In this document: positions 14,648 through 25,700 of the stretch, piece by piece
How the letters are laid out: every line of letters begins with the position of its first letter
How positions within the stretch are numbered: the first letter of the stretch is position 1
Source: an uncultured Bacillota bacterium
GTDB taxonomy: Bacteria > Bacillota > Clostridia > Peptostreptococcales > Anaerovoracaceae
Direction: 5' to 3'
NCBI GenBank assembly: GCA_946638265.1
Contig: CAMPBN010000001.1
Coordinates: 1 to 27,266, forward strand
DNA: 27,266 nucleotides
Position numbers and translations under genes: made by a program
The notes under the pieces: generated by a model
What the model was told of the DNA's origin: nothing
What the model saw: only the letters and a program-made list of their open reading frames with translations
The model's database searches: none

Positions 14648-15484
14648 TTATCCTAAAACGCGGCTGAAAACATCGTAGTTTTCGCTACCGGACGCAGGGC
14701 GATATACTGCAAAGACCACTTTCTTGAACACTTTCGGGAACTCCGCCAAAGCAGTCTTGTATGCCCGCGCCACCACTTTCGGATTGTTGTGGAACGCACC
14801 GCACCCGAAAGCCCCCAGCACCAAGGTGTCTGCGCCTTCCGCAGCCGCACAGGTCAGTATGTGCATCGCTCTTTTCACATGATATCCGAAAAGCTCGGCA
14901 TCGTTCATTTTAATGGGTCCGCCCACCAGCCCTGCGTGCATATTCGGGGTGTGTCTCAAATCCGGCGCCGCCACCGTGATAACATCCACTGTTACCCAAT
15001 CTTCCTGCGGCATGCGCTTTGGCAAATCTTCGTCCGTCTTGCAAATCACAACGCCCGGAGTATAAATAAGCGAATCTGTTGCCTTTTGCGACCCCAAATC
15101 GTGGTGATGCTTGTAAAAGCTGTCTCTCAGGCTTCTGCGGTAAATCAGCGGATACAGCGTGGATGTCCTGCACAAGCTCTCCTCCTGCGCGCTGCTACCC
15201 CGAGTCACGCCGCCACCTGCGTGAAAAGCATTCGCGAAATTCATTACCGCAATCTTGGCATCCGTGGCCTCCCGGTGCAGCCTCATGGCCGCCTCGAAAG
15301 AGCGCTCGCCCGTGACCGCAATCGTCTCAGTCACCGTTTTCGTCTCGTCGAATGTCGGATAATCGTCCTCGTAGTAAACTTTCGTCTTCGCCTTGCCCGC
15401 CTTCACCGAAGCCGCCAGCGCCGGCTCATCTTCAATCCACTTCATGGTGTCATTAAAAACTTCAATTCTATCTTTTTTGTCCAT
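14648..15484 (-). CDS. TIGR02452/DUF2263-family macrodomain protein (bacterial PARG-like)
   Basis: MNFANAFHAGGG...AQEESLCR and LVLGAFGCGAFHN; start ATG 15484 after GAGGTG. Confidence 0.88.
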   Translation of the reverse strand: MDKKDRIEVFNDTMKWIEDEPALAASVKAGKAKTKVYYEDDYPTFDETKTVTETIAVTGERSFEAAMRLHREATDAKIAVMNFANAFHAGGGVTRGSSAQEESLCRTSTLYPLIYRRSLRDSFYKHHHDLGSQKATDSLIYTPGVVICKTDEDLPKRMPQEDWVTVDVITVAAPDLRHTPNMHAGLVGGPIKMNDAELFGYHVKRAMHILTCAAAEGADTLVLGAFGCGAFHNNPKVVARAYKTALAEFPKVFKKVVFAVYRPASGSENYDVFSRVLG

Positions 15485-15511
15485 TTCACACCTCAATAAC
15501 ATTTTTATCGC

Positions 15512-15584
15512 TTTCGTCCAGCTACTCTATCTTTTCGTCCAAATTTGATCGATTTTGGACGAAAAATCAATCTGCTGGACGAAA
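15512..15584. repeat. Nested double inverted repeat (four TTTCGTCCA motifs), REP-like
   Basis: tttcgtccagc 15512, ttttcgtccaaa 15532, tttggacgaaaa 15554, gctggacgaaa 15574. Confidence 0.85.
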
Positions 15585-15586
15585 AA

Positions 15587-15799
15587 TTATCCGATGTATT
15601 CGAAACGCGGGCGCACCTGCCCGTCGCGCTCTACAGTCTCGTTCCACATGGATGCAGGCCGCACCCACACATCCCCGTCGCCGTACAGCGCCCGGTAGAC
15701 CACCATGTCCTCCAGCGTCTCCGAATGCCGCGCCACGCACAGCACCTCGTACTCGTTCCCTTTAAAATGCCGGTACTTGCCGACCTTGATCTCAGACAT
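15587..15799 (-). CDS. DUF1653-family protein
   Basis: GKYRHFKGNEYEV...HSETLEDMVVYRALYG...WVRP...RF. Confidence 0.9.
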   Translation of the reverse strand: MSEIKVGKYRHFKGNEYEVLCVARHSETLEDMVVYRALYGDGDVWVRPASMWNETVERDGQVRPRFEYIG

Positions 15800-15821
15800 T
15801 GCTATTCTCCTTCTCTGCTTT

Positions 15822-16754
15822 TTATATCGTTTTCAGCCGGTTCAACAGATCTTCCACAACACCCGAATCATCTATTAGAAAAATACCAAAGCATTTCTTT
15901 CCGGCATCCTTTATGGATGCCCCTATATGATACGCTGTCTTCCCATCCAGTATGATAAATCTATCATGGAACACCTGTGTCTTCTTCACTGTCAATGTCG
16001 GGTACTGTGTATTAAAATTATCCGCATCCCTATTCGTAAGCGGTGCGTTCGCATATGTATATATCTTCACATTGACCCCTGCATTCTTCTTTGCCAGGAT
16101 GTTCAATGTATCCACATCGACATATCCGTCAATCAGGATTATCTCCTTTTGCGCTTTCCGGATGATGGATGTAATTAAGCTGAACGCATCGTAAATCTGT
16201 CCATCAAAGAATATCTTCTGCTCCGATTCTGCATGTTCCTCGATATACTGAAACACCTTGTCAAACTTCTCATCCGTGCTTTTCTGGTATTCCAACTGTT
16301 TCAGTTCTATATCACTAACCTTTTCAAAGAGAAGTGCATTGCGGGCAACAAAGCGACGCATTTCAACAAAAGTGCGCATGATATTTATACTCACTTGAAC
16401 AGCAACCTTGCTATGCAAAACGCTTGCAAGCATACTTATTCCCTGCTCTGTATAGGCATAGGGATAATATCTGCGGCCACCGCGACCGCCTTGCTCTTCG
16501 TTTGAGGTTCCAGATTGGAACCTCAAACCATCAAATTCCTCTTTCGTAAGCTTAAAACGAAAATCCTCCGGAAACCGGTCAGCGTTACGCGTTGCTGCTT
16601 TGTTGAGATTCTTTGTCTCAACCTGATAAAGCATCGCCAAATCACTGTCTATCATGACCTGTTTTCCACGAATAACATAAACAAGGCTCCCAATATCCTT
16701 TATTTCGGTAATAACAGGCGCTATTTCATTAGCCGTTTGTTTTGTATTTACCAT
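15822..16754 (-). CDS. ORF6N-domain DNA-binding protein with C-terminal PLD-like domain
   Basis: IRGKQVMIDSDLAMLYQV...RFPEDFRFKLT...YAYTEQGISMLASVLHS; C-terminal FHDRFIILD...YHIGASIKD; start ATG 16754 after GGAG. Confidence 0.85.
   Translation of the reverse strand: MVNTKQTANEIAPVITEIKDIGSLVYVIRGKQVMIDSDLAMLYQVETKNLNKAATRNADRFPEDFRFKLTKEEFDGLRFQSGTSNEEQGGRGGRRYYPYAYTEQGISMLASVLHSKVAVQVSINIMRTFVEMRRFVARNALLFEKVSDIELKQLEYQKSTDEKFDKVFQYIEEHAESEQKIFFDGQIYDAFSLITSIIRKAQKEIILIDGYVDVDTLNILAKKNAGVNVKIYTYANAPLTNRDADNFNTQYPTLTVKKTQVFHDRFIILDGKTAYHIGASIKDAGKKCFGIFLIDDSGVVEDLLNRLKTI
16500..16528. repeat. 29-bp palindrome inside the ORF6N coding sequence
   Basis: GTTTGAGGTTCCA-GAT-TGGAACCTCAAAC; encodes LRFQSGTSN. 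Confidence 0.9.
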
Positions 16755-16765
16755 TTTCATCTCCA

Positions 16766-16796
16766 TGTTTGAGGTCACAAATTGTGACCTCAAACA
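16766..16796. repeat. 31-bp palindrome just upstream of the ORF6N RBS, same outer arms as the internal copy
   Basis: TGTTTGAGGTCACAA-A-TTGTGACCTCAAACA; reads LRSQFVTSN in the gene frame. Confidence 0.92.
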
Positions 16797-16839
16797 ATTT
16801 CATTTTTTATACTTTAGACGGAAATTACCCGATGTACTC

Positions 16840-17157
16840 TTATTCTCCCTTTTTCTTTTCTGTGGCGCCCGCCACGACTTTTGGATTCTTTTTCAACATT
16901 TCTTCGTAATACGCTTTGTACCGATATACGCTGCGTTTGCTGATGCCGTTTCGATCGGCAATCTCAATCAAGTCCATGCCCTTTTCGTAACAAATCACAA
17001 AATCGTTATATATGGCCGTCCACTTGGCATTGTGCGGCTGGCGCCCGCTGGCTTTGCGCTGCTTGTAATATTCAAGTTCCTTTCGCAAATCCGCGTTTTC
17101 ACGTTCCAATTCCTCTATTCGCGCCATGGCCTCTTCAAATGTTTTAATCTTTTTCAT
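16840..17157 (-). CDS. Small coiled-coil plus resolvase-type HTH protein
   Basis: GMDLIEIADRNGISKRSVYRY; GGAG RBS. Confidence 0.7.
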   Translation of the reverse strand: MKKIKTFEEAMARIEELERENADLRKELEYYKQRKASGRQPHNAKWTAIYNDFVICYEKGMDLIEIADRNGISKRSVYRYKAYYEEMLKKNPKVVAGATEKKKGE

Positions 17158-17185
17158 AACCGATTTCTCCGATAATCCTATTTTT

Positions 17186-17362
17186 TTATGCTATTTTTCG
17201 CCCGAGCAATTCTTTCCAATAGTTGCCGCCGTCGTTCCCTTTCAGACGTTCGTCATCCATTGCAAAGCCCTTGATGATATACTCCTTCAAAACAGAATTC
17301 GCCCATATTTGAACTGTTGCAAAAAATGCAACAACTGAATCCTTGTCCAGCTCCCCTTCCAC
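17186..17362 (-). pseudogene. RhuM-family relic with internal deletion and truncation
   Basis: Below the ORF-track cutoff; VEGELDKDSVVAFFAT-VQIWANSVLKEYIIKGFAMDDERLKGNDGGNYWKELL matches two normally separate RhuM segments (recalled). Confidence 0.7.
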
Positions 17363-17382
17363 GTCATTTCCACTCTGTCACA

Positions 17383-17411
17383 ATTATACTGCATTTAGGC
17401 CGGGTTGTCAA
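17383..17411 (-). promoter_or_regulatory. Perfect consensus sigma-A promoter
   Basis: TTGACA-17 bp-TATAAT. Confidence 0.85.
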
Positions 17412-17475
17412 TGTCATTTTGTCTTTCCGCGGCACAAAAATGGGTCGCTTCTCCCGCGACCCAAAACCAACGAAT

Positions 17476-17826
17476 CTACAGCAGCGCACGCCACTCGTCT
17501 TCTTTGAAGCCCACCAGCACGCAGTCCTTCGCCACCACCAGCGGCCTCTTCACCAGCATCCCGTCCGACGCCAAAAGCCGATACATCTCGTCCTCGCTCA
17601 TGCCCGGCAGCTTCTTCGACAGCTCCATCTCCCGGTACAGCTGCCCACTGGTATTGAAAAACTTTCGCAGCGGCAGCCCGCTCTTTTCGTGCAGCGCCCG
17701 CAGCTCCGCCTCGTCCGGATGCTCCGTCTTAATGTCCAAAAGCTCGTATTTCACGCCGCTCTCGTCCAGCCACTTCAACGCTTTCTTGCACGTCGTGCAC
17801 TTTGAATAGCAGTATACTTTTAACAT
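17476..17826 (-). CDS. ArsC/Spx-like (YffB-type) family protein
   Basis: YSKCTTCKKA, FNTSG..YRE, LVKRP. Confidence 0.9.
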   Translation of the reverse strand: MLKVYCYSKCTTCKKALKWLDESGVKYELLDIKTEHPDEAELRALHEKSGLPLRKFFNTSGQLYREMELSKKLPGMSEDEMYRLLASDGMLVKRPLVVAKDCVLVGFKEDEWRALL

Positions 17827-17847
17827 AGATACCTCCGATGGAAAATT

Positions 17848-18654
17848 CTATAAAACTATTGATTTTGCCCAATTTGAACAGGCTTCAGACTCAAATAACC
17901 CCAACTCCTGCCATATACCGGCATAGTATATTCCTGCACTCGGAGCTTTTGCGAGGTTTTTTCTTTTACTAAAAACATGTTCAACATCATAAACTGTATT
18001 CATTTTCCATGTGGCTTTAGTTGCATTCTCTAAGGTTAAGACTCGTTTTAAGTCATACTTTAATAGACCTGCTCCTGGCATATTGCTGTCAAAAGAAAGA
18101 TTCTTTGCTGCCTTAAACATCATATTTGTTTTCTTGACCACATGTTTTCCTTTAGCGTGAGGATGCCACCATAATTTTTTAATCTCTTCAGGATTATCAA
18201 CGACTTCACCAACCTGCAAATATCCCCATATTACCTGTAAATCATTGTCTTTATAAAAGTCACCTGTTTTTCGCACATATTGATAGTGCCCATTAGCTTT
18301 CTCAACGCGGTGAAAGTTTCCAAAGAACAGGAACAAATCGCCTTTATTTACCCCTATGTTCTTTAAGTAACCCGCTGAAGAATCAACTTGACCAAAAGCA
18401 GGCTCCCAGCCTTTTATCTTTTCAATCCTTCTGCTCTGGTCTAAATCAGGATCAACATGGCAAAATGAGGGGCCTTTATAATTCAAGTCTTTTAGAATCT
18501 CCGAATAGGGAATCCCCTTGTACTGTAATTCATCATATCTATCCCAATCATCCGATGGAATCGGAAAAGAAATCATAGTACCATCTTCAAATATAGGGCT
18601 AACGATCCCGCCATTCGCTGAATCAAAGCCTTTTCTGCTCAGAATAACTTTCAT
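17848..18654 (-). CDS. Nmad3 (nucleotide-modification-associated domain 3) protein
   Basis: MKVILSRKGFDS..GG..SPI, HVDPDL, AFGQ, GDLFLFFG, WHPH. Confidence 0.75.
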   Translation of the reverse strand: MKVILSRKGFDSANGGIVSPIFEDGTMISFPIPSDDWDRYDELQYKGIPYSEILKDLNYKGPSFCHVDPDLDQSRRIEKIKGWEPAFGQVDSSAGYLKNIGVNKGDLFLFFGNFHRVEKANGHYQYVRKTGDFYKDNDLQVIWGYLQVGEVVDNPEEIKKLWWHPHAKGKHVVKKTNMMFKAAKNLSFDSNMPGAGLLKYDLKRVLTLENATKATWKMNTVYDVEHVFSKRKNLAKAPSAGIYYAGIWQELGLFESEACSNWAKSIVL

Positions 18655-18756
18655 AGGCTACACCATTACCCATTGGGTATTATCATAAGTATAAATTATA
18701 TTCACTCTCTGACATATTCTCACCATGTTCTTAACCTATTAGCCTCCCTATATGCT

Positions 18757-19587
18757 CTATCGATTCTTATACCATACAAACCAATCAAATTTTCGCTTTC
18801 TAAAAGCTGTTGTAATGTTTAATTCATCAAGCTTCTTTGTAATGTAGTCGTTATATGCTGCATAGTTGTAAGAATTTTGCCATCTTTGTATCTGTCCTCT
18901 TGTAATATCGTCGAAATACTTTGGAAGGCTATCCTTTAATACCGAATCTAAGATAGAATAATCATCTCTTTCATAAAGGTTCTTATTGTGATAGCAGCAA
19001 TACTTTGTCGCAAAAGAAAAAAGATTAATCTTCCCATTACTACGCGCAATAGTATTTACCACCTCCGGATCACCAGCTTTTATTCGTTCATCAATATTGG
19101 GAATAGAAGCAATAATATCCGAAAGCTCTGCCATGCTTATTTTACTCTTGTGCTGCGAGAGATGAGTTGAATTCGTAATATCTATAAGTCCAACCTTCAT
19201 GGCTACAAGGTCTGAATCCGTATTGTATGGATACGTTTTAAGGCAACGGGTAATCATGTCCATTTCAGAGCCATAATTATCCGCACCCATCACATCCCTT
19301 TCTGCCTCGTTCAAAGTATCATCTGTTATTAAATCTTTATTAAAATTACATCCTAATTTTATCCGCTTTATGCTCTTTTCAAATATTATAGGTTTTACCC
19401 CAGATAAAGAATAATATGATGGATTACTGCCGGTTCTTATAACAATGCCATTAGTCACAAGCTTAGATAAGGCCGTATAAATATTGGGACTATGGTTCTT
19501 ATCACCGTAAATTGTTTCAGCCAACTGCCCTTGAGTCATAGTAGTATTCAATTTTAGTAAAGCGATAATTTTTTCTTTTTGTCCCAT
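18757..19587 (-). CDS. Winged-HTH plus helical domain protein (glycosylase-like helical motif, tentative)
   Basis: N-terminal MTQGQLAETIY...LSKLVTNGIVIRTG wHTH; C-terminal NLFSFATKYCCYHN...YSILDS. Confidence 0.5.
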   Translation of the reverse strand: MGQKEKIIALLKLNTTMTQGQLAETIYGDKNHSPNIYTALSKLVTNGIVIRTGSNPSYYSLSGVKPIIFEKSIKRIKLGCNFNKDLITDDTLNEAERDVMGADNYGSEMDMITRCLKTYPYNTDSDLVAMKVGLIDITNSTHLSQHKSKISMAELSDIIASIPNIDERIKAGDPEVVNTIARSNGKINLFSFATKYCCYHNKNLYERDDYSILDSVLKDSLPKYFDDITRGQIQRWQNSYNYAAYNDYITKKLDELNITTAFRKRKFDWFVWYKNR

Positions 19588-19670
19588 ACTGCTCCCTTCT
19601 TTCTTAATAGCTTACTTTCTCGTCATATTTCTGTCTGTGTTAATTAGAAATTCATAGCCCGCCTATATTG

Positions 19671-19982
19671 CTACATTCTATTTTGCTCACATTCAGTGTA
19701 CGGAACCCATGTGAACTTAGTAAAATCGATTTCAGTATCGACTTCACCCCCATATGGTGGATATCCGTTGTACTGCCCACCAAAGGCCAAACTCAGCACA
19801 TTCAAAGGTGTAATAGTCTTCTTTTCTCTGTTCAGAAAAACGTAGCCTGAATCAAGAACATTATGCCATCCTTTTCTGATTTCAGGAAACAGTGATTCCA
19901 GTTTGTCCATCTCGCCCTTATCAAGTTTTATGAACAAATCGGCCTCTGTTACATTTTTGTTCGTCCATTCAAGAATTAGCAC
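19671..19982 (-). CDS. Hypothetical protein
   Basis: Open frame in the island; GTG 19982 after GAGG preferred to TTG 20009; overlaps the upstream stop. Confidence 0.6.
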   Translation of the reverse strand: MLILEWTNKNVTEADLFIKLDKGEMDKLESLFPEIRKGWHNVLDSGYVFLNREKKTITPLNVLSLAFGGQYNGYPPYGGEVDTEIDFTKFTWVPYTECEQNRM

Positions 19983-20304
19983 TGCTTCGTTCCTCACCTT
20001 TCCAAACAATAGACAGTTTATATTCCTCTAAATTCGCCCTATTAATTACAATCGACGGATCATCATCACTATCTTTCATCACCCAGTACTGCCTGCCGTC
20101 CACAAAGATGTACTTGTTTGGATGATTCCAAAAATACATGGTAATCCCGTTCTCAGAGATATAATCCACCATCGCCATAAACTCTACATCATCGCCGGCG
20201 CATTTATGTCTGACAATGTATTCGTGCGGTGCCCTATCTGCGTAAGTCTTAGCAAAAGTCCACGTTTGATTTTCTATAAAAGACTTTAGTCCCTCTAAGT
20301 TCAT
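19969..20304 (-). CDS. Conserved-looking hypothetical protein
   Basis: WTFAKTY...PHEYIVR...DGRQYWVM...INRA; GAGGT RBS. Confidence 0.7.
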   Translation of the reverse strand: MNLEGLKSFIENQTWTFAKTYADRAPHEYIVRHKCAGDDVEFMAMVDYISENGITMYFWNHPNKYIFVDGRQYWVMKDSDDDPSIVINRANLEEYKLSIVWKGEERSSANS

Positions 20305-20325
20305 ACCTTACCTCAGCAGCATTTA

Positions 20326-22335
20326 TTATTTTTCAAATATAATTCTCAGCATTTTTTCTTGATGTTCTTTTATTTCTTCAAATTCCCATCTTCCCTTGTC
20401 TTTACAAATCTGCATCATTATCCTGAACTTTAATGAAGCGACGCTGACAGGATTTATTTTCTTAGATTTATCAAGATAATGGTCTAATTTCGCCTTAGGA
20501 GACCAATTAGAACCGGAACTGTTTGCTTCACTGCCAATCATGGCAAAGTTCCCCAAACAGTTAATTTGGGCCTCATTTAATCCACCCTCATCGGCTATTA
20601 CATTAGCTTGTGGATAGTAATGTTCCAAACTTGTCCTTGTTCTCGAGAAATAGAACCGATCGAATACTTTTAGTCCAAAATCCTCACAACCAAGCGTCGA
20701 GAAAAACGCTTTCCTCTTTGGGCTTTCTTTATCAAGATTCTTTGCATCAGTATCATATAATTTCCACAGTCTATAATCTATATAGTTAAAAACAAACAGC
20801 GGAATTCCTTTTGTAGCTTCGGTTCCATCTCCATACATATCAATAAAAGCAGCTTTTGTTTTTTCTGTTAATTTTGTACGATTGAGAGAATTCTTTGCCA
20901 GCATCACCTCATCAAAACTGCCTGGTTTCGGTCTATGATTAGCATTTAACTTATCCTCATCCATGTAGACACCAATAAAATATCTATCTGCAAGTTCTTT
21001 AACAAAAGCTAGGTAATCTACCGTATTTCCGTCATAATCGTTTAATAAATAGAAAAGGCAATAGAACAGGTAATTTTTCCTCTGGCGAGCTGTAAAAGCG
21101 ACTTCAAACATGGACAGCAGATGCACCAACTCATCCTGTGATGTTCCAACAGTATTTTTTAAATTCCCTTCTTTGTCTCGGGTCTGGATACTCCAAGGAT
21201 TATTATCCGGTGAGTCTTCTTCTTTGGAATGGTGAACCACATAATTATCTAGGAAAAACCTTGCTTTTAGGAGATTGTAGGCAAATTTTTTAATTTTATC
21301 TGAATCCATTTTTGCCTTGTCGAATTCATTTATTAATTCTTTATCATCCAAGATAAAACCATTTGCGTCAAAGCCCTGTTCATTCATTTGCGATATTTTC
21401 AAAACAATGAGCAAGAAATTTGGAAAATCAATAATAGGAATAAACGAATCTTTTGTCTCAATCTGCTTTTTTTCTTTTGCTTCGCCTTCCTCTCCCCATT
21501 TATTTATAATGTCTTTTAATGATATCTTTTGATATTCTTTGTCTTCGGCTGCTCCTATCGACTTGACAATCTGCTCAAAAGATTCCACTATAAAGCGATC
21601 ATGTTTTTCACCAAAAATATCTTCTTTATTGTTTTTGACGAATGATTGCTGAACATATATATTCATTTCAGCGCAGCTTTCCCAAATTATATTGAAAGCC
21701 TTTTTTTCGTCATCGGCAAGTTTTGACATAAGCTTTGCTTTAACTATTTCATGCTTTTCAAGTTGTTCGCCTCGTGAATTCATTATCTCAAAATAATGAT
21801 TCAAATCGATATCTTTCGGTACCTGATAATGAATTATTCTCACTTTATCTTCAAAAAATGCTACGAATTCTTTTTTCTCTTTTCCACCTTCTTGAAATCC
21901 CAAATTTTTTATCGCAGATTCAGCATACTTATATCCACTTATAATACCCTCATCCAGTTCTTCGTCATTTGAGAATTTTTTTCCGAGATTTTTTAATGTA
22001 TTATCTGATTTTCTTCTTGCCCTATAAGTTAATTTATTCTGAACTTCAAGCCCTAAAACATCTAGTAAAATTCGCAGTGTAGTAAGCCTCTGCTGCCCAT
22101 CAATAATTTCAAAAACATTATCACCTTTGTGAAAAGACACTAGAGTTCCAATATAATATGGCTTATTCGATTTTTTAGAATACGCATCATATATATCCTG
22201 AACCAGCGCCGAGATTTCATCTTTTCCCCAAGCATAGTTTCTTTGGTAAATTGGGATTTCATATACGCACTTTTCATATCCATTAAAAATTTCTTTGATT
22301 GAAGCTTCTTTTAATGCTAATTCTTCCCTCGCCAT
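20326..22335 (-). CDS. DUF262 plus DUF1524 (GmrSD-like, type IV restriction-type) protein
   Basis: IPIYQRNYAW, IDGQQR, FEIMNSRG; C-terminal EHYYPQ...LGNF...N...SN HNH-type motif. Confidence 0.88.
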   Translation of the reverse strand: MAREELALKEASIKEIFNGYEKCVYEIPIYQRNYAWGKDEISALVQDIYDAYSKKSNKPYYIGTLVSFHKGDNVFEIIDGQQRLTTLRILLDVLGLEVQNKLTYRARRKSDNTLKNLGKKFSNDEELDEGIISGYKYAESAIKNLGFQEGGKEKKEFVAFFEDKVRIIHYQVPKDIDLNHYFEIMNSRGEQLEKHEIVKAKLMSKLADDEKKAFNIIWESCAEMNIYVQQSFVKNNKEDIFGEKHDRFIVESFEQIVKSIGAAEDKEYQKISLKDIINKWGEEGEAKEKKQIETKDSFIPIIDFPNFLLIVLKISQMNEQGFDANGFILDDKELINEFDKAKMDSDKIKKFAYNLLKARFFLDNYVVHHSKEEDSPDNNPWSIQTRDKEGNLKNTVGTSQDELVHLLSMFEVAFTARQRKNYLFYCLFYLLNDYDGNTVDYLAFVKELADRYFIGVYMDEDKLNANHRPKPGSFDEVMLAKNSLNRTKLTEKTKAAFIDMYGDGTEATKGIPLFVFNYIDYRLWKLYDTDAKNLDKESPKRKAFFSTLGCEDFGLKVFDRFYFSRTRTSLEHYYPQANVIADEGGLNEAQINCLGNFAMIGSEANSSGSNWSPKAKLDHYLDKSKKINPVSVASLKFRIMMQICKDKGRWEFEEIKEHQEKMLRIIFEK

Positions 22336-22338
22336 TAA

Positions 22339-23814
22339 TTAACCCTCCAAAAATTTATGCTCCTTAAAGTAGTGTAGATAATTAGAATAGATTTTTTCTT
22401 CATCTGCACTATCTATATCTTCTATATTTTCTTTAAGCTCCGATTTCTGTAATGGAACTAAAATATCTGACATTCTGCTAAGCAATATGCTTGGCGAATC
22501 CGCTTCTGCTATAACTTTGTAAATATTAAACGCATTAACTATTTCTCTCTTTGGTGTGCCCATAATATAATTTTGAGCAACCCACCAGCCAACATTGACA
22601 TACTGTGCACGCATGGAATACGCCCATATAAATGCAAGTACTACAAACTGGTCGAGATAACCAAGGTCTTGTTTTGACGGTATTTGAGGGCAAAACCTGT
22701 CAACATAGAGCAATATTGCAGTGTCAAACATTTGCCGAGTAATTCGATTCCCCACCCCTTTCTTCCATTTTGGAAGATCAAGGGTTTTAACAATCGGATT
22801 ATCATTTATGAAATAACCCTCGTATTTATCGTTATTCTGTATATCGGCGAGTATTTCAAAATAATGCTTTGAATAATCAAAGAATGGCTTTCCTGCTATT
22901 ACCGGCGCATTCAACTGAAACGGATTCAGTAATTGCTTTCCCGTAACAAATGGCACATGTGAATGATTTAATTCGTCTGCGTACGCGAATGCCCCTTTAT
23001 AGTATTGAGCATACGGATGATTTTCCCGCATTGTAATCCCTTTAAACAGATCAATATTATGCTCTGTCAATTCATCAGCACGATTGCCTTTAACCCATTC
23101 TTTTAACTTGTAAAGATATTCGTTGAAAAGATTTGCTAAATCTCCTTGTTTTAGATCCTCCCACGTTTTTACTGTTTTTTCAGTTTCTTCGACACTAATG
23201 CCACCCATCTCACGGAGATGATATGCTTTAAGTAAGTCGTGTGGATACAGTGCCTTCCCTCTTGCATTTTGTGAATCAAAAAACTGAAAAGCTTCAGATA
23301 AATCGTTTGTAATTACTACAATTAATTCGCAATTATTAATAATATAATCGCTTAATAATTTCTTCCTTCTATCATCAGCTTGAAATTGATTTACTCTTCT
23401 TTCCAAAGCTCTATAGTTATTCTTTACATTACGAAGTGTAGATTTATTTGTAAAAACTAATTGCTCAAGAAAAGAAATCTTATGCTCACCAAACGCATGC
23501 AGCAATAACGAAAATGTAATTACCCTCTGCTGCCCGTCCACTATATTGTAGTAAATTTCACCATTTCCATCTTTCTCTTCTTTATGCAAAATTAACGTTC
23601 CGACGCGATACGCTTCCTTATTCGCACTCATTGCATCTTCAATGTCATCCAAGAGCTGATTCGCATTTTTAGCTGTCCACTTATATGGCCGTTGATACTC
23701 TGGAATGACCAACTTAATATCTGAAAACGAGCCAACGCCATCAAGATTTGTAATCTTATTATTCAAAAGCAAATCGCCTATTTTTGTAATTCCTAATTGT
23801 AAATGATTCCCCAT
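22339..23814 (-). CDS. DUF262 protein without a recognisable HNH domain
   Basis: IPEYQRPYKW, VDGQQR, FDSQNARG; 3 nt from the next gene; GGAAGG RBS. Confidence 0.85.
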   Translation of the reverse strand: MGNHLQLGITKIGDLLLNNKITNLDGVGSFSDIKLVIPEYQRPYKWTAKNANQLLDDIEDAMSANKEAYRVGTLILHKEEKDGNGEIYYNIVDGQQRVITFSLLLHAFGEHKISFLEQLVFTNKSTLRNVKNNYRALERRVNQFQADDRRKKLLSDYIINNCELIVVITNDLSEAFQFFDSQNARGKALYPHDLLKAYHLREMGGISVEETEKTVKTWEDLKQGDLANLFNEYLYKLKEWVKGNRADELTEHNIDLFKGITMRENHPYAQYYKGAFAYADELNHSHVPFVTGKQLLNPFQLNAPVIAGKPFFDYSKHYFEILADIQNNDKYEGYFINDNPIVKTLDLPKWKKGVGNRITRQMFDTAILLYVDRFCPQIPSKQDLGYLDQFVVLAFIWAYSMRAQYVNVGWWVAQNYIMGTPKREIVNAFNIYKVIAEADSPSILLSRMSDILVPLQKSELKENIEDIDSADEEKIYSNYLHYFKEHKFLEG

Positions 23815-23880
23815 AATAAAACCTTCCTTTGCTTTCTTACAGTCTTCCGCAGTAATAGTCTGCCAAATTTATTGTCCATT

Positions 23881-23940
23881 AAAAAGGCCCCCTTGTGGCG
23901 AGGAGTCCCACACAAAAAGAGACCACCCCTGTGATCTCTT
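23881..23940 (-). terminator. Two tandem terminator-like hairpins upstream of the DUF262 operon
   Basis: AAGAGATCA-CAGGGG-TGGTCTCTT-TTT (23914-23940) and GGACTCCT-CGCCACA-AGGGGGCC-TTTTT (23881-23908). Confidence 0.5.
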
Positions 23941-23955
23941 CTCTAACCCCGTCCC

Positions 23956-23964
23956 ATTATAGCA
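23956..23964 (-). promoter_or_regulatory. Extended -10 element facing the island
   Basis: TGCTATAAT; -35 weak. Confidence 0.45.
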
Positions 23965-24039
23965 TACCGCCGGGGTTTCGTGCCAGCCCGAGCAGGGATT
24001 TTCGCGCATTTTTGCATGAGCTGCAGCGTGATACGCTCC

Positions 24040-24291
24040 TTACTTTTCTGACGGCGGGTTTTCCGTATATCCCCATTCCCGCAATATTTCAAGAGCCTCC
24101 GCTTCGTCTATGCTACGCAAGCACTCCCAACAGCCCTGCCCCAAATATATTGCCCGACAGTATAATTCGTCCTTGTAATCAGGTCTTGGCGTAAGATGGC
24201 TCCAGCATTCATCACCTTTGTGCAAAATCTCCGGGCCCTCTCCGATATAGCGAATCAGCACATCTTTATCAAAATAGTCATACCAATACAT
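24040..24291 (-). CDS. Hypothetical 83-aa protein
   Basis: AAGGGGG RBS; aromatic-rich, RAIYLGQGCWE. Confidence 0.7.
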   Translation of the reverse strand: MYWYDYFDKDVLIRYIGEGPEILHKGDECWSHLTPRPDYKDELYCRAIYLGQGCWECLRSIDEAEALEILREWGYTENPPSEK

Positions 24292-24313
24292 CTGTCGTCC
24301 CCCTTCTTAATTC

Positions 24314-24397
24314 TCACCACTTTATCTTTAATAATTTGTAGATCGCAACTACACATACGAGCAAACACCATTCAAAAAACCTGAACATTCTAATCAT
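24314..24397 (-). CDS. 27-aa hydrophobic small protein MIRMFRFFEWCLLVCVVAIYKLLKIKW
   Basis: Not in the ORF track; AAAGGAGGT 6 nt before ATG; stop 22 nt before the next gene. Confidence 0.55.
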   Translation of the reverse strand: MIRMFRFFEWCLLVCVVAIYKLLKIKW

Positions 24398-24516
24398 CGG
24401 GCGACCTCCTTTGTTAACATAACCTCTTAAATACAACCTTTCTCTTCACTTTTTATTGTATTCAGGTCGTGTCCGTTAAAACGTACTTTCCGGAAGTTGC
24501 CCGCAGGATTCCATAC

Positions 24517-24543
24517 AAAAAAGAGACCCTGTGGTCTCTTTTC
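24517..24543. terminator. Intrinsic terminator after the flavin-enzyme genes
   Basis: AAAAAAGAGACC-CTGT-GGTCTCTTTT. Confidence 0.8.
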
Positions 24544-24551
24544 TAATTTCA

Positions 24552-25067
24552 TCACACCTCCAGGTGCTGGCGGATGGCGAAGCCTTCCTTTTTCAGCGCC
24601 GAGTCCAGGTAGTCATAAGCGGCCGGGGCCACCTTGATCAGGTGCATGGCGTGGGGCAGCTTCCGCATCGCATCTTCGGGGATTTTCTTGAATTCCAGCA
24701 CGCGCAGGTATTCCGCCGAAAACGGCTCCACCATCTCCGCAGTGCCGGTGACCTGAAGGCCTTTCAACTTACCAAATCCGCCGTAGGATTCGTATATGGC
24801 GATTCCCACATTTTCGTTTTCCTTCAGGGCGCGAAATTTCAGGCCGCCCTCGGAGAGGAAATAGAACCATCCGTCCAAAAAATTATATTCTATCGGCGTG
24901 TTGCGCACAAAATCCCCGTCCGCCGAGGCCGTAGCCAGGGCGCAGGTGTTGTTCGCCGTGATAAACTCTTCGATTCGCGCCTTCAGCGCCTGAGGTTCCA
25001 TATGCGCGCTGTCCCGGTCCTTTTCTTCCCAGTAACGCGCCGCTTCGTCATAATTCATCGTCCACAT
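24552..25067 (-). CDS. Pyridoxamine 5'-phosphate oxidase-like FMN-binding protein
   Basis: NTCALAT...RNTPIEY...FLSEGGLKF...GLQVTG; GGAGG RBS. Confidence 0.85.
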   Translation of the reverse strand: MWTMNYDEAARYWEEKDRDSAHMEPQALKARIEEFITANNTCALATASADGDFVRNTPIEYNFLDGWFYFLSEGGLKFRALKENENVGIAIYESYGGFGKLKGLQVTGTAEMVEPFSAEYLRVLEFKKIPEDAMRKLPHAMHLIKVAPAAYDYLDSALKKEGFAIRQHLEV

Positions 25068-25088
25068 ACTGTTCCTCCCGCGGAAAAT

Positions 25089-25634
25089 CTACCTGTACGT
25101 CAGCAGCTCTGCCACTTCTTTGCGCTTTGGCGCTTCCGGAGACTCGGCCGGGTAGCCGCAAGCGATGATGGCGCCCAGTGCCTGGTCTTCCGGCAGGTCG
25201 ATGACTTTTCGTACCGCCTCTTCATCGAAATACCCCAGGATGACCGTGCCGATGCCTTGGTCCTCTGCGGCCAGGCAGAAAGTCTGAGCTGCGATGCCGG
25301 CGTCAAAATTTTGCCAGCCGGAGCCGGTCGGTGTGCTGTAAGAGCCGTCCTTTTCAAAGCCGGAGCGGCCTTTCACATATGTCAGCAATACAATGGCGGT
25401 TGCGCCTTCCAGAGTGCGCAGATTGTATTTAAAATCAAAAACGCATTCCGGGGTCGCCAATGCACAGCGAAGCTCCGGATCTGCCACCACAATGTATCTC
25501 ACTATCTGGGTGTTCTTCCAGCTGGGTGCAAATCGTGCAACATCCACGATTTTTTCCATTGCCTCCCGCGGAATCTCCCTGTCTTCAAAGCGCCTGATGC
25601 TGCGCCTGCTTTTTACCACTGTCTCAAAATCCAT
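25089..25634 (-). CDS. Nitroreductase family protein
   Basis: RRSIRRF, APSWKNTQ, DAGIAAQTFCLAA, GYP. Confidence 0.92.
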   Translation of the reverse strand: MDFETVVKSRRSIRRFEDREIPREAMEKIVDVARFAPSWKNTQIVRYIVVADPELRCALATPECVFDFKYNLRTLEGATAIVLLTYVKGRSGFEKDGSYSTPTGSGWQNFDAGIAAQTFCLAAEDQGIGTVILGYFDEEAVRKVIDLPEDQALGAIIACGYPAESPEAPKRKEVAELLTYR

Positions 25635-25700
25635 TTTTTATTCCCTTTCTTTGCGCATATTTAAGGGAGCTCGCGCTCCCGTCGTCTGTTCCTGCGGACA

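What the first reader, a model, noticed from the sequence alone, without database searches (positions are those of the whole stretch)
17848..23880. AT-rich six-gene island combining tandem DUF262 genes with Nmad3: candidate system against modified phage DNA
Seen: co-directional DUF262(491 aa), DUF262-HNH(669), 111 aa, about 103 aa, wHTH-helical(276), Nmad3(268), with a sharp GC drop and no methyltransferase. Established: GmrSD/BrxU-type DUF262-DUF1524 enzymes cut modified DNA; Nmad3 was defined by association with base-modification clusters. Inference: the co-occurrence suggests a locus sensing or attacking hypermodified DNA by several routes, either one system or a stack of independent modules.
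Basis: partly seen in the sequence, partly recalled or inferred. Interest (0 to 1): 0.8.

Follow-up and report, generated by a model that had tools for sequence, protein, structure and literature searches.

The report
Mosaic defence islet: TgvAB-type pair plus orphans
The six genes are real and were acquired from elsewhere, but they are a stack of separately mobile cassettes at a variable hotspot, led by a copy of the known two-protein TgvAB-type enzyme against modified phage DNA, and not one new six-gene system.

Summary
Observation confirmed. Six co-directional minus-strand genes (17848-23814) lie in a 34-40% GC block between core genes of 56-57% GC.

Interpretation: only the "stack of independent modules" branch survives.
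- Genes 1-2 are a TgvAB-type two-protein GmrSD-family type IV restriction cassette. In 80 related loci from many phyla the pair always travels together, and no other gene does so consistently.
- The 111-aa gene is an occasional add-on, present in 7 of 80 loci.
- Neither the wHTH protein (Pfam HI_0787_N) nor Nmad3 accompanies the pair (0 of 80). They do not accompany each other either (0 of 91 and 0 of 14 loci).
- A close relative, L211, has the 111/112-aa pair directly abutting the ArsC-family gene. It carries CBASS-type genes and a different DUF262 gene where genes 1-2 sit here, so this is a hotspot with cassette turnover.

Nmad3 folds (pLDDT 97) as an EVE/YTH/ASCH-like PUA barrel. A role reading or processing modified bases is therefore plausible. 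It is an orphan single gene, seen on conjugative elements and in restriction-rich islands, and it lacks its usual Nmad2 partner.

The scan has already met TgvAB-type pairs (27 notes) and Nmad3 genes (76 notes) on other DNA. This is a sound but largely ordinary finding.

The parts
22339..23814 (-). g1, 491 aa: DUF262 (GmrSD_N) plus DUF7834, no nuclease domain. TgvA-type partner.
   Evidence: Pfam. Motifs YQR40, DGQQR93 and FDSQN179. 565 related loci found; in the best 80 it is always followed by a g2 homologue.
20326..22335 (-). g2, 669 aa: DUF262, helical linker and DUF1524 His-Me nuclease. TgvB/GmrSD-type effector.
   Evidence: Pfam. Motifs YQR30, DGQQR79, FEIMN182, EHYYP571 and downstream Asn592/596/605. 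29% full-length identity to the second gene of a Klebsiella IncFIB plasmid pair.
19969..20304 (-). g3, 111 aa: small conserved protein with no Pfam family. Occasional neighbour of TgvAB-type pairs.
   Evidence: 176 homologues, none with a family. A homologue lies upstream of g1 homologues in 7 of 80 loci, abutting the g1 homologue's start in L216-218. Invariant W15, F17-T20, P26, H27.
19671..20009 (-). g4, about 103-112 aa: small protein of unknown function that overlaps the end of g3.
   Evidence: Found elsewhere only next to g3 in L211, at 86% identity. No family or atlas lead.
18757..19587 (-). g5, 276 aa: HI_0787_N winged helix (residues 1-65), disordered linker (66-83) and conserved helical domain (89-275).
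   Evidence: PF27257. AF2 pLDDT 84. wHTH Z about 10. The helical part gives only weak Ogg2/HhH-GPD matches and weak Fic matches.
17848..18654 (-). g6, 268 aa: orphan Nmad3 with an EVE/YTH/ASCH-like PUA fold and an invariant His/Asp/Glu cluster.
   Evidence: Pfam 1.7e-53. AF2 pLDDT 97.3. VIA-align top 19 rows are all PUA-like readers, PH1033 at Z 8.1. Atlas rows include EVE, ASCH and NucS_C/HNH proteins. Invariant residues listed.
17838..19663 (.). The block carrying g5 and Nmad3. It is present here and absent from the otherwise collinear relative L211.
   Evidence: blastn: L211 6058-6698 matches window 20304-19664, and L211 6744-7090 matches window 17837-17491.
17476..17826 (-). ArsC/Spx-family gene. 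High-GC core flank and right edge of the island.
   Evidence: Pfam ArsC 4.3e-20. GC 57%. 87% identical in L211. Terminator-like hairpin at 17441-17463.
24552..25067 (-). PNPOx-family gene. High-GC core flank on the left side of the island.
   Evidence: Pfam PNPOx_N. GC 56%. A 68%-identical homologue lies two genes from an Nmad3 gene in L003.
18695..18723 (-). Promoter-like site in the 102-nt gap before Nmad3.
   Evidence: GTGAGA-17-TATAAT, 10 of 12. This is a consensus match only.

Best explanation
The AT-rich segment is a defence hotspot next to an ArsC-family gene. It has been filled by at least three unrelated, separately mobile cassettes.

(A) g1-g2 is a TgvAB-type two-protein type IV restriction enzyme. 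The two ParB-like DUF262 NTPase domains probably pair. Together they sense modified phage DNA, and NTP binding and hydrolysis would license the His-Me (DUF1524) nuclease of g2 to cut it. No methyltransferase is needed, because only foreign modified DNA is attacked.

(B) g3-g4 is a small two-gene unit of unknown role. g3 sometimes rides directly in front of TgvAB-type pairs.

(C) g5 is a stand-alone wHTH protein with a conserved helical domain.

(D) g6 is an orphan Nmad3 with the barrel fold of modified-base readers and an invariant His/Asp/Glu cluster. It most likely binds or hydrolyses a modified base or nucleotide on its own.

Shown here: domains, motifs, pair synteny, cassette turnover and folds. 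Inferred: substrates, complex formation and any anti-phage effect.
For: g1-g2 as a TgvAB-type pair:
- Domains and motifs.
- Published TgvAB has the same architecture and gene order, and needs both genes.
- g1 and g2 homologues are adjacent in all 78 of 80 loci where the contig continues; the other two loci (L050, L075) end at or near the g1 homologue. The loci span Bacillota, Bacteroidota, Spirochaetota and Pseudomonadota.
- The flanks of the pair vary. They include HsdR directly downstream (5 loci), HsdS directly upstream (3), WYL (7), HIRAN (5) and AbiEii (3).
- A Klebsiella IncFIB plasmid carries a pair with an 8-bp overlap beside hsdR. It shows 30% and 29% full-length identity to g1 and g2, and its first gene has DUF7834.
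- Complex test: 0.55 against a best control of 0.00, called 'weak support', with a DUF262-DUF262 interface that includes the QR and DGQQR motif regions of both chains. The mark was reached by 51 of 78 solved complexes and 2 of 108 mismatched pairs.

Independence of the other genes:
- g4, g5 and g6 occur in 0 of 80 g1 loci.
- None of the other five genes occurs in 91 g5 loci.
- Nmad3 sits in seven unlike contexts.
- L211 lacks the g5-Nmad3 block and has other defence genes in place of g1-g2.

Nmad3:
- Found in about 1-2% of genomes sampled: 6 of 301 in the order and 4 of 401 in the phylum, both counts including this genome.
- No match in 50,697 phage records.
- PUA/EVE-like fold by two aligners and by the atlas.
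Against: - No experiment exists on any of these genes.
- Sequences of V. cholerae VC1767 and VC1766 could not be fetched. Homology to TgvAB itself rests on architecture, on the Klebsiella pair as an intermediate, and on earlier notes.
- This copy is not embedded in a type I R-M locus.
- The complex score falls in the band the tool calls weak.
- One other Nmad3 locus (L228) does sit next to a DUF262-DUF1524 gene, and another (L209) sits next to a Dcm/LlaJI system. Some functional link between Nmad3 and restriction of modified DNA is therefore not excluded.
- g5 and g6 are absent together in L211, which is also compatible with their arrival as one piece.
Confidence: 0.8

Rival explanations
1. 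All six genes form one integrated system that attacks hypermodified DNA by several cooperating routes.
For: The genes are co-directional with short gaps and share low GC. Nmad3 has a reader-like fold. One other Nmad3 locus neighbours a GmrSD gene.
Against: - Nmad3, g5 and g4 occur in 0 of 80 g1-g2 loci.
- No DUF262 gene or Nmad3 occurs in 91 g5 loci.
- L211 keeps g3-g4 next to ArsC without g1, g2, g5 or g6.
- A promoter-like site lies in the 102-nt gap before Nmad3.
Confidence: 0.04
2. g5 and Nmad3 are a two-gene module. A wHTH/glycosylase-like protein and a modified-base reader would act together, for example to excise a modified base.
For: The two are missing together in L211. The g5 helical domain has weak Ogg2/HhH-GPD matches: probability 0.94 and 0.90, E 0.06-0.15. 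One AlphaFold DB match to g5 residues 32-276 lies in the C-terminal part of an entry named as an endonuclease/exonuclease/phosphatase family protein.
Against: - No Nmad3 in 91 g5 loci.
- No g5 homologue in 14 Nmad3 loci.
- A 102-nt gap with its own promoter-like site separates them.
- The atlas shape search gives Fic, not HhH, for the helical domain, at TM 0.38.
- No sequence-level match to glycosylases.
Confidence: 0.07
3. Nmad3 here is not a defence gene. It is cargo of conjugative elements that protects or repairs incoming DNA, either as counter-defence or as nucleotide house-cleaning.
For: - Close homologues sit in conjugative-element regions beside ParB, RadC, RelA_SpoT, Toprim and relaxase genes.
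- Others sit beside MazG-like, HD, NUDIX, Macro and DNA-alkylation-repair genes.
- The family shows an invariant His/Asp cluster that looks enzymatic.
- It lies 21 nt from the ArsC-family gene, with no terminator-like site reported in that gap.
Against: It also sits in restriction-rich islands: this window, L209 and L228. It is not found in phage genomes. No assay exists either way.
Confidence: 0.2

Closest known systems
TgvAB (VC1767/VC1766) of Vibrio cholerae VPI-2, a two-protein GmrSD-like type IV restriction system (PMC11411939; bioRxiv 10.1101/2024.04.05.588314; PMC12409362)
   Same: - The first gene has DUF262 only; the second has DUF262 plus DUF1524.
- QR, DGQQR and FxxxN motifs are present in both proteins, and a His-Me motif in the second.
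- The ORFs are tightly coupled.
- Relatives of this pair are embedded between hsdS and hsdR.
- The g2 catalytic His (572) lies almost where TgvB H571 does.
   Different: - This copy is not inside a type I R-M locus.
- It has a 3-nt spacer instead of an 8-bp overlap.
- The host is a gut or rumen Bacillota-type MAG.
- Direct sequence comparison with VC1767/VC1766 was not possible.
- The target modification is unknown.
GrwAB of WASA-lineage V. cholerae (PMC12137116, as reviewed in PMC12409362)
   Same: A two-protein GmrSD-like system in which both DUF262 proteins are needed.
   Different: In GrwAB the nuclease-bearing protein is named first (GrwA), and the partner has a long multi-domain tail. 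Here the nuclease-less partner comes first and has a single DUF7834 domain.
Single-protein GmrSD-family enzymes: Eco94GmrSD, BrxU (HEC-05), SspE, HEC-06
   Same: g2 has their DUF262-linker-DUF1524 layout and motifs. PADLOC HEC-06, Orf5 and SspE models hit both proteins.
   Different: Those enzymes act alone. Here a second, nuclease-less DUF262 gene is conserved next to g2 in every related locus. In the PADLOC hits the best-scoring stretch of the top models covers only about the first 100 residues.
Nmad3-Nmad2 coupled gene pairs (Pfam PF18754 and PF18753), noted repeatedly in this scan
   Same: g6 is a clear Nmad3 family member, and its PUA-like fold agrees with the scan's earlier readings.
   Different: No Nmad2 was found next to g6 or anywhere in this 68%-complete genome, nor next to the close homologues examined. 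This subfamily occurs as a single gene.
EVE/YTH/ASCH (PUA-like) modified-base readers, such as PH1033, the McrB N-terminal domain, THYN1 and VcaM4I
   Same: Shared barrel fold: Z 8.1, 6.4, 6.2 and 6.2, with 125-144 residues aligned. Atlas neighbours include proteins that carry NucS_C or HNH nuclease families.
   Different: Nmad3 is about twice as long, has no detectable sequence similarity to them, has no nuclease domain, and carries its own invariant His/Asp/Glu cluster.

Membership tests
TgvAB-type two-protein GmrSD system | Adjacent co-directional genes: DUF262-only protein, then DUF262-DUF1524 protein | tested here: met
   Pfam. The order is conserved in all 78 of 80 related loci where the contig continues.
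TgvAB-type two-protein GmrSD system | QR, DGQQR and FxxxN motifs intact in both DUF262 domains | tested here: met
   g1: 40, 93, 179. g2: 30, 79, 182. The motifs are as defined in the papers.
TgvAB-type two-protein GmrSD system | His-Me finger (catalytic His plus Asn) in the second protein | tested here: met
   EHYYP at 571-575, with Asn592, 596 and 605 downstream. Which Asn binds the metal is inferred.
TgvAB-type two-protein GmrSD system | Sequence homology to VC1767/VC1766 along the full length | not testable with these tools
   The V. cholerae sequences could not be obtained. Indirect evidence: 30% and 29% full-length identity to a Klebsiella IncFIB pair with an 8-bp overlap beside hsdR. 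A preprint places TgvAB on IncFIB/IncFII-type plasmids of Klebsiella.
TgvAB-type two-protein GmrSD system | Embedded in a type I R-M operon | tested here: not met
   No hsd genes flank this copy. Among 80 related loci, HsdR lies directly downstream in 5 and HsdS directly upstream in 3. This is context rather than a mechanistic requirement.
TgvAB-type two-protein GmrSD system | Both proteins are required, and they restrict phages with glycosylated hmC | not testable with these tools
   Needs plaque assays. The complex prediction gave weak support: 0.55 against a best control of 0.00.
HEC-06 (PADLOC) | Single GmrSD-like protein matching the HEC-06 model along its length | tested here: inconclusive
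   Whole-protein E 1.7e-31 (g1) and 8e-30 (g2), but the best-scoring stretches cover only about the first 100 of about 560 model positions. The paired architecture differs.
Nmad3 (PF18754) | Match above the curated cut-off | tested here: met
   182 bits against a cut-off of 27. Atlas TM 0.96 to the Nmad3 cluster.
Nmad3-Nmad2 module | Adjacent or coupled Nmad2 (PF18753) partner | tested here: not met
   No Nmad2 in the genome at E up to 0.1, with the genome 68% complete. None next to close homologues.
PUA-like EVE/ASCH/YTH readers | Barrel fold with a pocket for a flipped or modified base | tested here: inconclusive
   Fold similarity is consistent: 18 rows at Z 5 or more, all in this superfamily. 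The pocket residues could not be mapped, because model coordinates were not readable.
HhH-GPD / Ogg2 DNA glycosylases (for g5) | HhH fold with a catalytic Lys/Asp pair | tested here: inconclusive
   Foldseek probability 0.94 and 0.90, but TM 0.30-0.39 and E 0.06-0.15. The atlas prefers Fic at TM 0.38. A profile search of PDB finds nothing relevant.

The most novel reading that the evidence does not exclude
The orphan Nmad3 may be a self-sufficient, single-gene enzyme built on an EVE-like reader barrel. It would recognise and hydrolyse a modified base or nucleotide through its invariant His66/Asp68/Asp70/His164/His166/Glu250 cluster. Its residence beside restriction systems, several of them modification-dependent, in 3 of 15 loci would then reflect a shared target, namely hypermodified phage DNA. 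The neighbouring g5 may be a second, glycosylase-like route.
Probability: 0.2. Interest if true: 0.6.

Novelty: new member of a known kind. Interest (0 to 1): 0.27.

Why it matters
Physical clustering of DUF262 genes with Nmad3 here comes from cassette stacking at a hotspot, not from a new composite system. The locus should therefore be annotated as a TgvAB-type restriction pair plus unrelated orphans.

Three by-products are useful:
- The TgvAB-type pair with a DUF7834 partner spreads as a self-contained two-gene unit across at least four phyla and about a thousand plasmids.
- An unnamed 111-aa family is its most frequent add-on.
- A single-gene Nmad3 subfamily offers a simpler handle than the Nmad3-Nmad2 pairs for finding out what this uncharacterised reader-fold family does.

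Tried and rejected
- NCBIfam gave nothing for any of the six genes.
- PHROGs gave only marginal hits.
- Pfam at E up to 10 gave nothing for g3 or g4.
- Atlas feature searches for g3 and g4 returned noise-level rows at 0.79-0.81.
- g3 is not DUF6508. hhalign gave probability 0.9% against the DUF6508 gene that precedes Nmad3 in L001, and 0.1% against the 143-aa gene in L207.
- PDB sequence and profile searches gave nothing meaningful for g5 or Nmad3.
- The Iyer et al. 2013 paper that defined the Nmad domains is not held. A literature search for Nmad3 and DUF7834 found nothing relevant, so the statement about how Nmad3 was defined rests on the Pfam name only.
- DefensePredictor (PMC13092281) labels an 'NMAD' in validated and predicted systems. 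The text read does not say which Nmad family it is.
- Synteny with a same-genus genome (G002) is rearranged and uninformative.
- No flanking direct repeats, integrase or tRNA mark the island edges.
- V. cholerae is not named among the control genomes that matched GmrSD_N, so TgvA and TgvB could not be fetched.
The whole-model VIA search was filled by winged-helix hits.
Full report
**What is there.** Six ORFs lie head to tail on the minus strand:

| gene | coordinates | length |
|---|---|---|
| g1 | 22339-23814 | 491 aa |
| g2 | 20326-22335 | 669 aa |
| g3 | 19969-20304 | 111 aa |
| g4 | 19671-20009 | 112 aa from TTG, about 103 aa from an internal GTG |
| g5 | 18757-19587 | 276 aa |
| g6 | 17848-18654 | 268 aa |

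Pfam assigns the following:
- g1: GmrSD_N (DUF262) plus DUF7834.
- g2: GmrSD_N plus GmrSD_C (DUF1524).
- g6: Nmad3 at 1.7e-53.
- g3 and g4: no hit.

g5 is absent from the local Pfam copy, but every homologue carries the newer PF27257 HI_0787_N.

The six genes have 34-40% GC (GC3 30-45%). The flanking ArsC-family gene (17476-17826) has 57% GC and GC3 83%. The flanking PNPOx gene (24552-25067) has 56% GC and GC3 73%. None of the six is a methyltransferase.

**Genes 1 and 2.** Both proteins keep the three DUF262 motifs. In g1 these are YQR40, DGQQR93 and FDSQN179. In g2 they are YQR30, DGQQR79 and FEIMN182. g2 also carries a His-Me motif, EHYYP at 571, followed by Asn592, Asn596 and Asn605. g1 ends with TAA, and g2 starts 3 nt later behind a GGAGGG that lies inside the end of g1. 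The two proteins resemble each other only over the DUF262 domain, at 26% identity.

Two papers describe this same architecture as TgvAB of V. cholerae VPI-2:
- TgvA has DUF262 only, and TgvB has DUF262 plus DUF1524.
- Both are required for protection.
- Mutants in DGQQR, in TgvB His571 and in TgvB Asn602 are dead.
- The targets are T-even phages with glycosylated hydroxymethylcytosine.

A review adds a second two-protein system of this kind, GrwAB.

**Synteny of the pair.** A scan of one genome per species found 565 loci encoding a g1 relative. The best 80 have 56-70% identity and come from Lachnospiraceae, Treponema, Prevotella, Flavobacteriia, Gammaproteobacteria and others. In all 78 loci where the contig continues, a g2 homologue (45-67% identity) follows within a few bases. 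The other two loci (L050, L075) end at or near the g1 homologue.

I clustered 729 flanking ORFs from these loci and annotated representatives of the recurrent clusters. No other fixed partner emerged. The recurrent neighbours are:
- a g3-like gene: 7 loci, always upstream;
- WYL regulators: 7 loci;
- HsdR directly downstream: 5 loci;
- HIRAN: 5 loci;
- HsdS directly upstream: 3 loci;
- AbiEii: 3 loci.

The pair is therefore a self-contained mobile cassette that is sometimes embedded in type I R-M operons, as tgvAB is.

Full-length relatives also sit on 1018 plasmid records, 907 of them from Klebsiella. On the IncFIB plasmid NZ_CP054968 the two genes overlap by 8 bp and lie beside hsdR. The first gene has DUF7834. 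They are 30% and 29% identical to g1 and g2 over the whole length. A preprint places TgvAB on IncFIB/IncFII-type plasmids in Klebsiella.

I could not fetch VC1767 and VC1766 themselves, so direct homology to them remains untested.

A complex prediction of g1 with g2 residues 1-500 scored 0.55 against a best control of 0.00. The tool calls this weak support. Its mark was reached by 51 of 78 solved complexes and 2 of 108 mismatched pairs. The interface joins the two DUF262 domains and includes the QR and DGQQR motif regions of both chains.

**The other four genes do not belong to the pair.** None of the 80 loci carries a relative of g4, g5 or g6 within 10 kb.

g5:
- It has 684 detectable relatives.
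- I examined 91 loci containing them. None carries Nmad3, g1, g2, g3 or g4. A DUF262 profile built from 153 domains also finds nothing there, although it does find both window genes.
- Its neighbours are varied: Macro and ADP-ribosylglycohydrolase; a PLD-helicase/NUDIX/HNH_4 cluster; and TraG and NlpC/P60 genes of conjugative elements.

g6 (Nmad3):
- Close relatives at 61-76% identity sit in seven unlike settings:
  - two conjugative elements, one with an overlapping DUF6508 gene and one between RelA_SpoT and Toprim/relaxase genes;
  - PNPOx, then a MazG-like gene, then Nmad3, beside a Dnd cluster;
  - HD, Nmad3, MerR;
  - NERD, a 143-aa gene, Nmad3, YbaK;
  - beside Vsr, Dcm and LlaJI;
  - this window.
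- The family is rare. It was found in 6 of 301 genomes of the order and 4 of 401 genomes of the phylum, both counts including this genome.
- It has no match in 50,697 phage records and matches only 6 plasmids.
- Among 14 other Nmad3 loci, one (L228) has a DUF262-DUF1524 neighbour. That gene is a single-protein GmrSD. It sits beside a truncated Nmad3, an Mrr gene and an AAA_5 gene.

**Direct evidence for cassette turnover.** The closest g3 homologue lies on a contig, L211, where g3 (84% identity), g4 (86%) and the ArsC-family gene (87%) are contiguous.

At the DNA level, L211 6058-6698 matches window 20304-19664, and L211 6744-7090 matches window 17837-17491. The 1.8-kb block holding g5 and Nmad3 is therefore an exact presence/absence difference.

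Upstream of g3, L211 carries a 602-aa DUF262 protein and SMODS/Sa_NUDIX (CBASS-type) genes where g1-g2 sit here.

Elsewhere g3 relatives occur alone next to a MazG-like gene (L212-215), or abutting the start of a g1 homologue (L216-218).

g3 belongs to a small family of 176 proteins with no Pfam model and an invariant W-x-FAKT...PH core. It is not DUF6508.

**Folds.**

Nmad3 was modelled from 63 sequences at pLDDT 97.3.
- Foldseek found no significant PDB match. Its weak rows are rich in EVE, ASCH and PUA proteins.
- The independent VIA-align search puts PH1033 (an EVE protein) first, at Z 8.1 with 138 residues aligned. The next 18 rows are all YTH, EVE, ASCH or McrB-N-terminal readers, or proteins with a comparable N-terminal module (VcaM4I, DrmA).
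- The atlas shape search returns EVE and ASCH clusters, Nmad2, and clusters that carry NucS_C or HNH nuclease families.
- A Z of about 8 alone is not decisive. The agreement of three searches makes a PUA-like barrel likely.
- Invariant residues are R7, K8, G9, D11, P33, H66, D68, P69, D70, G88, F108, H164, H166, L206, W216, Q249 and E250, and C65 is nearly invariant. The His/Asp/Glu members suggest a metal or catalytic site. This is inference.
- No Nmad2 partner was found in this 68%-complete genome.

g5 was modelled at pLDDT 84.
- Residues 1-65 form a winged helix, at Z about 10 to Z-alpha and MarR-type domains.
- Residues 66-83 form a disordered linker.
- Residues 89-275 form a helical domain with only weak and conflicting matches: Ogg2-type glycosylases 3knt and 3n0u at probability 0.94 and 0.90 with TM 0.30-0.39, an HhH-GPD entry at E 0.06, and Fic at TM 0.38.
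- The first-stage guess of a glycosylase remains a lead, not a finding.

**Verdict.** The locus is a hotspot stacked with independent cassettes. Its largest component belongs to a published kind of system, TgvAB-type type IV restriction. The scan has already recorded that kind 27 times, and Nmad3 genes 76 times, on other DNA.

The proposal of a composite system combining DUF262 genes and Nmad3 is not supported. What remains open and mildly interesting is:
- the biochemistry of the single-gene Nmad3 subfamily;
- the role of the g3 add-on;
- the function of the g5 helical domain.

Noticed in passing
L211:400-6706 (Logan SRR7267929 contig): In a close relative, the same hotspot beside the ArsC-family gene holds a 602-aa DUF262 protein, Sa_NUDIX plus SMODS (CBASS-type) genes and two unknown genes, then g3-g4. 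This is a natural comparison set for cassette turnover.
   Followed up: partly
window 14648-16793: Just past the ArsC-family gene lie a microbial PARG gene (14648-15502) and an ORF6N-domain gene with a weak PLD-like tail (15822-16793). The two closest g5 loci (L111, L112, 83-84% identity) also carry an ORF6N homologue. The variable region may therefore extend to about 14.6 kb.
   Followed up: partly
L001:7574-8807; L003:7658-8810; L005:7366-8807; L207:4555-5807: The single-gene Nmad3 subfamily is usually preceded by a small, changeable gene: DUF6508 (overlapping it), MazG-like, HD, or an unassigned 143-aa ORF. This may be a variable partner slot.
   Followed up: no
L228:8283-14946: An N-terminally truncated or frameshifted Nmad3 sits between an hsdR-containing stretch and a run of type IV-style genes: a 689-aa GmrSD, Mrr_cat and AAA_5.
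   Followed up: partly
L221 (NZ_CP054968.1 197718-201204) and 1018 plasmid records: A DUF262-DUF7834 / DUF262-DUF1524 pair with an 8-bp overlap is very common on conjugative Klebsiella plasmids (907 records). It lies beside hsdR and a SprT-like gene.
   Followed up: partly
AlphaFold DB entry A0A0U3EKA9: The g5 model (residues 32-276) matches the C-terminal part (149-429) of an entry named as an endonuclease/exonuclease/phosphatase family protein (E 2.7e-6). The name may describe another part of that entry and does not by itself show a fusion.
   Followed up: no
window 23901-23924 and 24505-24528: A 24-nt direct repeat (75% identity) brackets the 83-aa gene region between g1 and PNPOx. On the minus strand each copy reads as a T-rich, terminator-like tail.
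   Followed up: no
window 16800-25700 versus G002:C54: In a same-genus genome (GC about 38%), the ArsC-family and nitroreductase genes are 4.7 kb apart, in rearranged order, with unrelated genes between them. The genus varies widely in GC.
   Followed up: partly
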